Virus record (IMG/VR): IMGVR_UViG_3300014205_000201
Length of the DNA stretch: 23,129 nt
Direction: 5' to 3' (one strand)
From: a virus
Taxonomy: Duplodnaviria; Heunggongvirae; Uroviricota; Caudoviricetes
Below, one piece after another: positions 13,882-14,233 of this stretch (position 1 is its first letter; each line of letters begins with the position of its first letter). Under the pieces are notes generated by a model that was not told the DNA's origin, made no database searches, and saw only the letters and a program-made list of their open reading frames with translations. The position numbers were made by a program, and so were the translations under genes.

Positions 13882-14233
13882 TTATTGACGAGTACGTAGC
13901 ACCATGAATCCACCGACAACTGCTGATTTAACCACAATCCAGATGGTATCTGAACTATTATGATTGCAGCAGCCGCAAGGACCACAGGGAGCACGGTCAT
14001 CAGTTGTAGACCACCATATGTAGCGTTGGTAATGTTAGTTATGGTTGTATTAGCAGAACCAGTTGTAGCTGGCATTGAGCTTGCAACGTTGGCTACGATT
14101 TCCGCAGAAACCATAATCAAAATTGCGGCAATGACTACTGCTAAGATTGTGTAGGAACTCGGTATGGGTATCCTCTTGCACCCATAACTACATTTAAAAC
14201 CCCGCGCTTGTTGCGTAGGAGTTTGCCGAACAT
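13882..14233 (-). CDS. Putative major capsid protein of spindle-shaped-virus type, three exons: join(14233..14176, 14146..13960, 13927..13882), 96 aa
   Basis: Spliced product MFGKLLRNKRG-VLNVVMGAILAVVIAAILIMVSAEIVANVASSMPATTGSANTTITNITNATYGGLQLMTVLPVVLAAAAIISAVVGGFMVLRTRQ*. Exons sum to 58+187+46=291 nt. It has a basic leader ending KRG, two hydrophobic helices and three N-x-T sequons in the loop, with its own promoter and terminator. Confidence 0.75.
13928..13959 (-). other. 32-nt BHB-type mRNA intron (intron 2)
   Basis: RNA parse: GCUGCUGC|AAUC|AU^A|AUAGUUCAGAU-ACC-AUCUGGAUUGU|GGUU|AA^A|UCAGCAGU, with a 4-bp central helix, an 11-bp intron helix and a 7-bp exon helix. Removal gives GCA ATC ATA TCA GCA (AIISA) in frame. 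Confidence 0.82.
14147..14175 (-). other. 29-nt BHB-type mRNA intron (intron 1)
   Basis: RNA parse: GUUAUGG|GUGC|AA^G|AGGAUAC-CCAUACCGA-GUUCCU|ACAC|AA^U|CUUAGC. Removal gives ATG GGT GCA ATC TTA (MGAIL) in frame; retention gives a UAG after 30 codons. Confidence 0.75.

What the first reader, a model, noticed from the sequence alone, without database searches (positions are those of the whole stretch)
13882..14233. Viral capsid-like gene split by two bulge-helix-bulge mini-introns: mRNA likely spliced by the host tRNA splicing endonuclease
Seen: the called ORF is a three-frame chimera. A signal-like start (MFGKLLRNKRG-VLNVVMGA) and a natural end (SAVVGGFMVLRTRQ*) lie in other frames, separated from the hydrophobic core by 29-nt and 32-nt inserts. 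Both inserts independently fold as BHB motifs with two 3-nt bulges around a 4-nt central helix. Cutting after the second bulge nucleotide restores the frame at both sites and yields a seamless 96-aa two-helix protein. Established: archaeal EndA cuts BHB motifs at this position in tRNA and rRNA precursors and in the cbf5 mRNA of some Crenarchaeota, and RtcB ligates the exons. Inference: the most abundant virion protein can only be made after host tRNA-type splicing. I do not know of a described case in an archaeal viral structural gene, but could not check the literature. Possible purposes are a late-expression switch, host-range gating, or shielding a conserved gene from nucleases or CRISPR spacers. 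Such genes would be systematically mis-annotated.
Basis: partly seen in the sequence, partly recalled or inferred. Interest (0 to 1): 0.96.

Follow-up and report, generated by a model that had tools for sequence, protein, structure and literature searches.

The report
tRNA-type mini-introns in viral coat-like gene
A tiny membrane-protein gene of an uncultured, probably archaeal virus is broken by two ~30-base inserts shaped like tRNA introns, and relatives carry such inserts at nine different places in the same 290-base gene, so the virus very probably needs its host's tRNA-splicing enzymes to make this protein.

Summary
On the minus strand, a 58-nt, a 187-nt and a 46-nt exon lie in three frames, split by inserts of 29 nt (14175-14147) and 32 nt (13959-13928). 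Joining them gives a 96-aa two-helix protein.

Uninterrupted metagenomic homologues are colinear with that product across both junctions. Eight related loci carry 27-32 nt inserts at nine sites. All 16 inserts have bulge-helix-bulge (BHB) geometry exactly at the homology-defined junctions, with 95% of core pairs formed against 36-45% when the partner strand is slid. Every locus gives an intact 95-96 aa ORF after BHB-rule splicing, with dN/dS of 0.03-0.09. Two independent DNA runs hold the inserts unchanged.

Caveats:
- A BHB fold alone is common by chance.
- Intron 1 of the window is a relaxed BHB (C-A mismatch).
- No RNA data exist.
- The host is unknown.
- "Capsid" is only an inference.

New here: introns at different sites are related to each other (84% and 77% identity). 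An HNH-like gene lies directly downstream in all seven insert-bearing loci that could be checked.

In print I found only cbf5. This scan has noted BHB introns in viral genes before, on other DNA.

The parts
14176..14233 (-). Exon 1 (58 nt). It holds the ATG at 14233-14231, a basic leader ending in KRG, and the start of hydrophobic helix 1 (MFGKLLRNKRGVLNVVMGA plus the first base of the next codon).
   Evidence: It is colinear with residues 1-19 of uninterrupted homologues P0003, P0004 and P0011-13.
14147..14175 (-). Intron 1 (29 nt, phase 1, site B). It is a relaxed BHB: central helix 14181-14178 GUGC with 14152-14149 ACAC (3 of 4 pairs, one C-A mismatch), bulges 14177-14175 AA|G and 14148-14146 AA|U, inner stem AGGA/UCCU, outer stem 2 bp.
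   Evidence: The same site is occupied by unrelated 27-31 nt BHB inserts in L005, L010/L011 and L012a/b. The pair at central position 2 changes U-A, A-U, C-G along with the wobble base of the Gly codon.
13960..14146 (-). Exon 2 (187 nt). It holds the rest of helix 1, a loop with three N-x-T sequons (ANTTITNITNAT), and most of helix 2.
13928..13959 (-). Intron 2 (32 nt, phase 2, site F). It is a near-canonical BHB: central helix 13965-13962 AAUC with 13933-13930 GGUU, bulges 13961-13959 AU|A and 13929-13927 AA|A, an 11-bp inner stem with an ACC loop, and an outer stem of 10 bp after a C-U mismatch.
   Evidence: L003 has a 31-nt BHB insert at the identical codon position, with a compensatory change in the central helix (CAUC/GGUG).
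13882..13927 (-). Exon 3 (46 nt, stop TAA included). It holds the end of helix 2 and the basic tail (SAVVGGFMVLRTRQ).
   Evidence: It is colinear with residues 83-96 of the homologues.
13079..13750 (-). A 223-aa ORF directly downstream, probably an HNH-type endonuclease (C-x4-C ... DHI-GGG ... LC-x2-C-N-x2-K). A homologue lies directly downstream of the interrupted gene in all 7 insert-bearing loci with enough flank.
   Evidence: PHROG HNH endonuclease E=0.0036; no Pfam hit; conserved Cys/His/Asn motif. Weak Foldseek rows include several HNH nucleases, none significant.
14369..19494 (-). Upstream co-directional ORFs of 128, 491 and 1083 aa with no known family. They are syntenic next to the small gene in related contigs and form a presumed structural module.
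11922..13082 (-). A PMT_2-family glycosyltransferase downstream, followed by further glycosyltransferase, methyltransferase and radical SAM genes. This is a possible glycosylation module for the sequon-rich loop.

Best explanation
The gene at 14233-13882 (minus strand) encodes a 96-aa two-helix membrane protein and is interrupted by two archaeal-type bulge-helix-bulge mini-introns.

Proposed steps:
1. The pre-mRNA folds so that each exon-intron boundary lies in a 3-nt bulge on either side of a 4-bp helix.
2. The host's tRNA-splicing endonuclease (EndA) cuts after the second bulge nucleotide at both sites.
3. An RtcB-type ligase joins the exons.
4. Only then can the full protein be translated. 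Without splicing, translation from the ATG stops after 30 codons.

The introns belong to a population of 27-32 nt BHB introns that occupy at least nine sites of this gene family in related virus-like contigs and appear to move between sites.

Shown here: the inserts, their exact boundaries, BHB geometry with covariation, selection on the joined frame, and their presence in independent DNA data. Inferred: cleavage by EndA, ligation, and an archaeal host.
For: 1. Uninterrupted homologues (P0003 96 aa, P0004, P0011-13, L001, L002) are colinear with the joined product across both junctions.
2. There are 16 inserts of 27-32 nt at 9 sites in 8 further loci. At the homology-defined junctions, 12 of 16 have a fully paired 4-bp central helix and the other 4 have 3 of 4 pairs. 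Central plus first four inner pairs are formed in 95% of cells, against 36-45% when the 3' partner is slid by 1-4 nt, with 4-6 pair types per position.
3. Among the first 14 inserts (counted before L013 was added), 8 met the criterion of a full central helix plus an inner stem of at least 3 bp. The decoy rate is 0.26% per junction pair, giving a binomial P of about 3e-13 even after allowing 4 equivalent boundaries per insert.
4. Every insert-bearing locus gives an intact 95-96 aa ORF after BHB-rule removal of its 1-3 inserts.
5. dN/dS is 0.03-0.09 with saturated dS among insert-bearing genes. L008 (2 inserts) and intron-less L001 encode identical mature proteins over 85 codons, with 64 nucleotide differences that are all synonymous.
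6. Inserts occur in all three codon phases. This fits RNA splicing and not ribosome hopping.
7. Contigs of two independent runs (landfill 2018, groundwater 2022) cover 13600-14500 with no difference.
8. The mechanism is established for cbf5 pre-mRNA in Crenarchaeota (PMC2738675).
Against: - There is no RNA evidence. No RNA run holds the sequence.
- The host is unknown. The only genome link is a 3.1-kb, low-coverage contig binned in a Bathyarchaeia MAG.
- Intron 1 of the window has a C-A mismatch in the central helix, and its BHB fold is 6.6 kcal/mol less stable than a competing hairpin.
- For most of the 16 inserts the BHB fold is not the minimum-free-energy structure.
- BHB-like motifs are frequent by chance, so the structural argument rests on the coincidence with the junctions.
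- Where several boundaries give the same product, I picked the one with BHB geometry. This slightly favours the hypothesis.
Confidence: 0.85

Rival explanations
1. The gene is a decaying pseudogene, or an assembly artefact, with random small insertions. No full-length protein is made.
For: The gene is frame-broken and was called as a 129-aa chimera. BHB-like folds are common by chance.
Against: - The inserts are identical in contigs from two independent runs.
- Insert-bearing genes recur in 8 further loci, and all become intact after BHB-rule removal.
- dN/dS is 0.03-0.09 in the joined frame, and L001 versus L008 shows 64 synonymous and 0 nonsynonymous differences.
- Insert lengths lie in a narrow 27-32 nt band, with covarying stems.
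Confidence: 0.02
2. The inserts are coding gaps that the ribosome skips (programmed translational bypassing, as in T4 gene 60 or the yeast mitochondrial byps elements), not RNA introns.
For: The gaps are short (27-32 nt) and hold a hairpin. Insert 1 is flanked by a CAA/CAA repeat.
Against: - There are no matching take-off and landing codons. At insert 1 these would be GCA and ACA, at insert 2 ATA and AAA (read directly from the sequence).
- No stop codon lies directly after the take-off site.
- Inserts split codons in phases 0, 1 and 2.
- Up to three gaps occur in 96 codons.
- Bypassing does not explain the fixed geometry of 3-nt bulge, 4-bp helix and 3-nt bulge, or the pairing of exon bases with the 3' end of the insert.
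Confidence: 0.03
3. The inserts are removed from the RNA at the BHB sites, but by an enzyme encoded by the element itself or by another unknown nuclease and ligase, not by the host EndA and RtcB.
For: The element is large (87 kb according to earlier notes of this scan, not checked here) and carries many genes of unknown function. Only 23 kb of it could be examined here.
Against: No tRNA_int_endo or RtcB family hit appears among the 20 large ORFs of the window. The geometry is exactly that recognised by cellular EndA, and all archaea have EndA. The one candidate host bin has two EndA-family genes.
Confidence: 0.07

Closest known systems
BHB intron of the cbf5 (pseudouridine synthase) pre-mRNA in Desulfurococcales and Sulfolobales (Watanabe 2002; Yoshinari 2006; Yokobori 2009, PMC2738675)
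   Same: It is a short intron inside a protein-coding sequence with a (partly relaxed) bulge-helix-bulge motif. It is cut by the tRNA-splicing endonuclease, causes mis-annotation of the gene, and shows lineage-specific presence and absence.
   Different: cbf5 is a cellular housekeeping gene with one intron at one site. Here a gene of a virus-like element carries 1-3 introns per copy, at nine sites within 290 nt across relatives. The introns are only 27-32 nt, copies at different sites are related, and an HNH-like gene lies next door. Splicing is experimentally shown for cbf5 and not shown here.
Non-canonical and multiple tRNA introns of Thermoproteales and other archaea (Marck and Grosjean 2003; intron transposition proposed by Fujishima 2010; these three are recalled from memory, not read here; reviewed in PMC4090602 and PMC4033280)
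   Same: These are small BHB or relaxed BHB (hBH/HBh') introns at many positions of a short gene. Several introns can sit in one gene, and related introns occur at different sites, which suggests transposition. They depend on endonucleases of broad specificity.
   Different: Those introns are in tRNA genes of cellular genomes. Here the target is an mRNA of a virus-like element, so the reading frame and translation depend on splicing.
Collaborative homing of an endonuclease-less intron with a free-standing homing endonuclease (cyanophage S-PM2 psbA intron with F-CphI, PMC6083498; T4 mobE with I-TevIII, PMC2790892)
   Same: An intron interrupts a phage or virus gene and a free-standing endonuclease gene lies directly beside that gene. 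Intron-bearing and intron-less alleles coexist among relatives.
   Different: Those are self-splicing group I introns, and the endonuclease activity and its target are proven. Here the introns are BHB type, the HNH assignment is only probable, and no target site is known. The link rests on synteny alone: 7 of 7 insert-bearing loci have the HNH-like gene directly downstream, against 0 of 4 intron-less loci.
Major capsid proteins of spindle-shaped archaeal viruses (SSV1/SSV19 VP1 and VP3, PDB 7xdi; Huangdivirus VP1 and VP3 of Bathyarchaeia, PMC10541130)
   Same: The protein is about 80-95 aa and forms a hairpin of two hydrophobic helices. It has N-x-S/T sequons, glycosyltransferase genes nearby, tandem paralogues in some genomes (L012a/b), and a leader that could be cleaved off.
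   Different: There is no significant sequence or fold match (PDB profile E=0.078 with the narrow alignment and no match with the broad one; Foldseek E=6). No Pfam or PHROG family matches. Presence in virions is unknown.

Membership tests
Archaeal BHB (splicing-endonuclease) intron | Two 3-nt bulges on opposite strands, separated by a 4-bp helix | tested here: met
   Intron 2 has AAUC/GGUU with bulges AUA and AAA. Intron 1 has 3 of 4 central pairs (a C-A mismatch), which makes it a relaxed motif. Across all 16 inserts of the family, 12 have 4 of 4 pairs and 4 have 3 of 4.
Archaeal BHB (splicing-endonuclease) intron | Flanking helices on both sides of the bulges (hBHBh'), or at least on one side (relaxed forms) | tested here: met
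   The inner stem is 4 bp in intron 1 and 11 bp in intron 2. The outer stem is 2 bp in intron 1 and 10 bp after one mismatch in intron 2. Across the family, inner pairs 1-4 are formed in 14-16 of 16 inserts and outer pairs 1-2 in 11 and 15 of 16.
Archaeal BHB (splicing-endonuclease) intron | Cutting after the second nucleotide of each bulge gives the functional, conserved product | tested here: met
   The joined product is colinear with intron-less homologues at both junctions. The same rule gives intact ORFs in all 8 other insert-bearing loci.
Archaeal BHB (splicing-endonuclease) intron | Structure maintained by compensatory change | tested here: met
   - Site A: UCCU/GGGG versus UGCU/GGCA, and an AA/UU to UU/AA swap in the inner stem.
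- Site B: central position 2 is U-A, A-U or C-G.
- Site F: AAUC/GGUU versus CAUC/GGUG.
The slid controls drop to 36-45% paired.
Archaeal BHB (splicing-endonuclease) intron | Excision seen in RNA, and cleavage by EndA with ligation by RtcB | not testable with these tools
   The sequence could be found only in DNA runs, and enzymology cannot be done here.
Archaeal BHB (splicing-endonuclease) intron | The host is an archaeon (it has EndA) | tested here: inconclusive
   No genome is held for the window. One related contig is binned in a Bathyarchaeia MAG that has two EndA-family genes. Nothing else in that bin matches the window.
Fusellovirus-type major capsid protein (VP1/VP3) | Significant match to the family's sequence profile or to a solved structure | tested here: not met
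   No Pfam or PHROG family matches. 7xdi_A VP1 scores only E=0.078 with alignment A1 and is absent with A2. Foldseek gives 7xdi_A at E=6 with a target-normalised TM-score of 0.58, beside ATP synthase c subunits.
Fusellovirus-type major capsid protein (VP1/VP3) | A small hairpin of two hydrophobic helices with glycosylation sequons, in a structural gene module | tested here: met
   The AF2 model has helices 9-43 and 68-95 at mean pLDDT 69. Three N-x-T sequons are present. The neighbours are large ORFs of unknown family plus PKD, beta-helix and PMT_2 proteins.
Class III (prepilin-type) signal peptide substrate | A short basic leader ending in [KR][GA], followed by a hydrophobic helix | tested here: met
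The window has MFGKLLRNKRG followed by VLNVV.... The motif is kept across 50 family representatives. Cleavage is untested.
Programmed translational bypassing (T4 gene 60 type) | Matching take-off and landing codons, and a stop codon right after the take-off site | tested here: not met
   The candidate codons differ (GCA and ACA at insert 1; ATA and AAA at insert 2). No adjacent stop is present, and the inserts lie in all three codon phases.
HNH homing endonuclease (downstream ORF 13079-13750) | A beta-beta-alpha-metal motif with a Cys4 zinc site and catalytic His | tested here: inconclusive
   A conserved C-x4-C ... DHI ... C-x2-C-N motif is present and PHROG HNH scores E=0.0036. There is no Pfam hit, and only non-significant Foldseek rows point to HNH nucleases.

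The most novel reading that the evidence does not exclude
The 27-32 nt BHB introns are a mobile family. They transpose between sites of this viral coat-like gene and spread together with the adjacent free-standing HNH endonuclease gene, in a BHB-intron version of collaborative homing. Each intron would disrupt an endonuclease target and so protect its allele. As a side effect, the virus's main structural protein becomes dependent on the host's tRNA-splicing machinery.
Probability: 0.3. Interest if true: 0.92.

Novelty: new variant of a known kind. Interest (0 to 1): 0.85.

Why it matters
In print, splicing of an archaeal protein-coding sequence by the tRNA endonuclease is established for one cellular gene, cbf5. 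I found no published case in a virus.

Here a virus-like element carries a whole population of such introns in one tiny, strongly conserved structural-type gene. If splicing is confirmed, several things follow:
- Viral late or structural gene expression would depend on host EndA and RtcB.
- BHB introns would be shown to invade mRNAs and to move between sites.
- Standard gene callers would be shown to mis-annotate such genes systematically. The database entries for this family include 10-aa read-through inserts, truncated products and three-frame chimeras.

The case also gives a compact test system of about 350 nt with two or three introns, suitable for studying the substrate rules of archaeal splicing endonucleases and how these introns are gained.

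Tried and rejected
- RNA evidence: the look-up of sequencing runs listed no RNA holder. Only DNA contigs could be laid.
- IMG/VR viral contigs: no relative found.
- Genome collection: only one relative, on a 3.1-kb contig.
- Own genome: none is held.
- Window-wide strict BHB scan: 123 hits on the minus strand and 84 on the plus strand, against about 105 in shuffles. It is therefore useless as an intron finder on its own.
- Mini-inserts in other genes: I compared all ORFs of the window and the loci by tblastn for frame-switching gaps. Only this gene showed them. Power is low, and in-frame inserts would be missed.
- A suspected split methyltransferase at about 1414-1420 is not split. Motif I lies at the start of the downstream ORF.
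- Rfam (gathering threshold) and ARAGORN on the window: nothing.
- Protein family: Pfam, PHROGs and PDB profile searches and Foldseek gave no significant match.
- Candidate host bin G001: apart from the L003 contig, nothing matches the window, and no spacer-like hits appeared.
- Alternative cut sites for intron 1 (for example the 27-nt option) give an in-frame stop (logic).
- Literature searches for BHB introns in viral protein-coding genes returned none. The nearest mention is the set of putative 12-bp inserts of rudivirus SIRV1, cited in PMC2738675, which are not BHB introns and were not shown to be spliced.

Full report
**1. What is in the sequence**

The gene lies on the minus strand. From the ATG at 14233 the frame runs 19 codons plus one base and then hits a stop 30 codons in. 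A second frame is open through the whole region; this is the called 129-aa ORF at 13878-14267. A third frame holds a natural C-terminus ending at the TAA at 13884-13882.

Removing 29 nt (14175-14147) and 32 nt (13959-13928) joins the three pieces into a 96-aa product. It has a basic leader, two hydrophobic helices and a loop with three N-x-T sequons.

**2. Is the fold more than chance?**

Intron 2 is a near-textbook bulge-helix-bulge:
- central helix AAUC/GGUU;
- bulges AU|A and AA|A;
- an 11-bp inner stem;
- a long outer stem after one C-U mismatch.

Its central helix GUGC/ACAC has a C-A mismatch, and its inner and outer stems are 4 and 2 bp. The BHB fold is 6.6 kcal/mol above a competing 8-bp hairpin.

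A strict BHB definition finds 123 motifs on the minus strand of the window against about 105 in shuffled sequence. The fold by itself is therefore not evidence.

**3. Homologues decide the matter**

A search with the called ORF found 14 metagenomic relatives.
- Six are uninterrupted (for example P0003, 96 aa) and are colinear with the predicted joined product across both junctions.
- Others are truncated, have odd N-termini, or carry a 10-aa in-frame insertion at a third place.

I fetched the DNA of these relatives and aligned it. The alignment shows inserts of 27-32 nt at nine sites of this roughly 290-nt gene:

| Site | Position (after coding nt) | Loci |
|---|---|---|
| A | 40 | L007, L008/9 |
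| B | 58 | window, L005, L010/11, L012a/b |
| B' | 69 | L003 |
| C | 74 | L007 |
| D | 107 | L003 |
| G | 150 | L013/14 |
| E1 | 231 | L007, L008 |
| E2 | 234 | L005, L013 |
| F | 245 | window, L003 |

I placed the canonical geometry at the junction dictated by homology: outer helix, 4-bp helix, 3-nt bulge cut after its second base, inner helix, on both strands. At those junctions 12 of 16 inserts have a fully paired central helix and the other four have three pairs. The central helix plus the first four inner pairs are formed in 95% of cells, with four to six different pair types per position. Sliding the 3' partner by 1-4 nt drops this to 36-45%.

Among the first 14 inserts, counted before L013 was added, 8 met the criterion of a full central helix with an inner stem of at least 3 bp. 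The per-junction decoy rate is 0.26%. That gives P of about 3e-13 even after allowing four equivalent boundaries per insert.

Compensatory changes are explicit:
- Site A has UCCU/GGGG versus UGCU/GGCA, and an AA/UU to UU/AA swap in the inner stem.
- Site B pairs the wobble base of a Gly codon (U, A or C) with A, U or G in the intron.
- Site F has AAUC/GGUU in the window and CAUC/GGUG in L003.

**4. The joined frame is the selected one**

After BHB-rule removal of their one to three inserts, all insert-bearing loci give intact 95-96 aa ORFs. The tandem paralogue L012b gives 105 aa, and L003 runs off its extracted stretch at 87 aa.

Among these loci dS is saturated, while dN is 0.08-0.2, so dN/dS is 0.03-0.09. 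L008 has two inserts and L001 has none. Over 85 codons they encode identical proteins, yet they differ at 64 of 255 nucleotides, and every difference is synonymous. This excludes pseudogenes.

Contigs from two independent runs (landfill 2018, groundwater 2022) cover 13600-14500 without a single difference. This excludes an assembly artefact, although one of the two runs may be the source of the window.

Ribosomal bypassing is unlikely. There are no matching take-off and landing codons, no adjacent stop, the inserts lie in phases 0, 1 and 2, and the bulge geometry has no role in hopping.

**5. Mechanism**

The best explanation is the one established for cbf5 pre-mRNA (PMC2738675). EndA cuts in the two bulges and an RtcB-type ligase joins the exons.

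Four of the sixteen motifs are relaxed. This suggests a host with a broad-specificity (heteromeric or epsilon2) endonuclease (PMC5829648 abstract).

The host is not identified. No genome is held for the window. One relative lies on a 3.1-kb, low-coverage contig binned in a Bathyarchaeia MAG. That MAG has two EndA-family genes, but nothing else in it matches the window.

No RNA run holds the sequence, so splicing itself remains an inference.

**6. New leads**

(a) Introns at different sites are related.
- E2 of L005 and G of L013 are 84% identical.
- B' of L003 and E2 of L013 are 77% identical.
- The maximum in 200 shuffled sets is 74%.

This points to movement of introns between sites. The 5' exon contexts of E2 and G are also alike (CAGC before the cut).

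(b) A 213-223 aa ORF lies directly downstream of the gene in all seven insert-bearing loci that have enough flank: the window, L003, L005, L007, L008, L010/11 and L012. It has a conserved C-x4-C ... DHI-GGG ... LC-x2-C-N motif and a PHROG HNH hit at E=0.0036.

Four intron-less loci lack this ORF at that place. These are L001, L002 and the P0012 and P0013 contigs, the last two judged by gene sizes only. L001 has a diverged copy upstream on the other strand.

The HNH assignment is probable but not secure. There is no Pfam hit and only weak fold rows to HNH nucleases. The sample is also small and phylogenetically structured.

The pattern recalls collaborative homing of phage introns with free-standing endonucleases (PMC6083498, PMC2790892). 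I rate this reading at about 0.3.

**7. What the protein is**

- No Pfam, PHROG or PDB family matches significantly.
- The AlphaFold model is a two-helix hairpin at pLDDT 69.
- Foldseek gives nothing significant. SSV19 VP1 (7xdi) appears among ATP synthase c subunits.
- The family has 148 representatives at 50% identity. They share a leader ending in [KR][GA], an ANTT loop and a PIVLAAxAII helix.

Its size, hydrophobic hairpin, sequons, tandem paralogues (L012a/b), neighbouring large ORFs of unknown family and glycosyltransferases all fit a spindle-virus-type coat protein. This is an inference (about 0.5) and not a membership.

The leader fits a class III signal. Earlier notes of this scan say the same 87-kb element encodes a prepilin-type peptidase whose substrate was not found. 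This interrupted gene is a candidate substrate, but I did not test that.

**8. Novelty**

In the searchable literature I found BHB splicing of a coding sequence only for cbf5, and no viral case. The Bathyarchaeia virus paper does not mention introns.

Earlier notes of this scan report BHB introns in viral genes on other DNA: ATPase, RFC, DUF932 and one coat-like gene. This is therefore not the first sighting within the scan.

What stands out here is the density (nine sites in 290 nt, up to three introns per copy), the evidence for movement between sites, and the link to an HNH-like gene.

This is a new variant of a known kind, and the missing piece is RNA evidence.

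Noticed in passing
window 13079-13750 (-); L012:10809-11471; L010:484-1155; L007:3277-3939; L003:1291-1845; L008:562-783: A conserved HNH-like ORF of about 220 aa lies directly downstream of the interrupted gene in every insert-bearing locus with enough flank. It is absent from that place in the intron-less loci. L001 has a diverged, duplicated copy upstream on the opposite strand.
   Followed up: partly
L012:9914-10231 and 10357-10701: Two tandem paralogues of the small gene carry an identical 27-nt site-B intron. The second copy has a 9-aa natural loop insertion. P0020 (188 aa) looks like a fusion or read-through of two tandem copies in another contig.
   Followed up: partly
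database proteins P0007, P0008, P0009, P0018, P0021, P0035: Public gene calls of this family show the effects of the inserts. Some have 10-aa read-through insertions with charged residues in helix 2 (30-nt stop-free introns at site E1). Others are truncated after ...TGSA (site G).
   Followed up: yes
window 19961-20914 (-): A 317-aa ORF has two NUMOD3 motifs and a weak REase_MTES_1575 match. It is a second homing-endonuclease-like gene in the window.
   Followed up: no
window 3873-4289 (-) and 2962-3876 (-): Two adjacent ORFs both match the N-terminal domain of GT4 glycosyltransferases. The 138-aa one looks like a truncated duplicate.
   Followed up: no
L002:6230-7674: An IS200/IS605-type pair (Y1 transposase plus a Cas12f/TnpB-like gene) lies about 3 kb downstream of the intron-less copy of the gene.
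   Followed up: no
window 8001-9000: This stretch has the strongest strand skew of the window (GC skew -0.38, AT skew +0.23). It lies around the only sizeable plus-strand ORF (8410-8760) and an intergenic gap. It may be a switch of transcription direction or a control region.
   Followed up: no
G001:C66:4618-4857 and G001:C38:7567-7821 (L015, L016): The Bathyarchaeia MAG that holds the related contig L003 has two separate EndA-family genes (open frames of 187 and 203 aa). This would fit a heteromeric, broad-specificity splicing endonuclease.
   Followed up: partly
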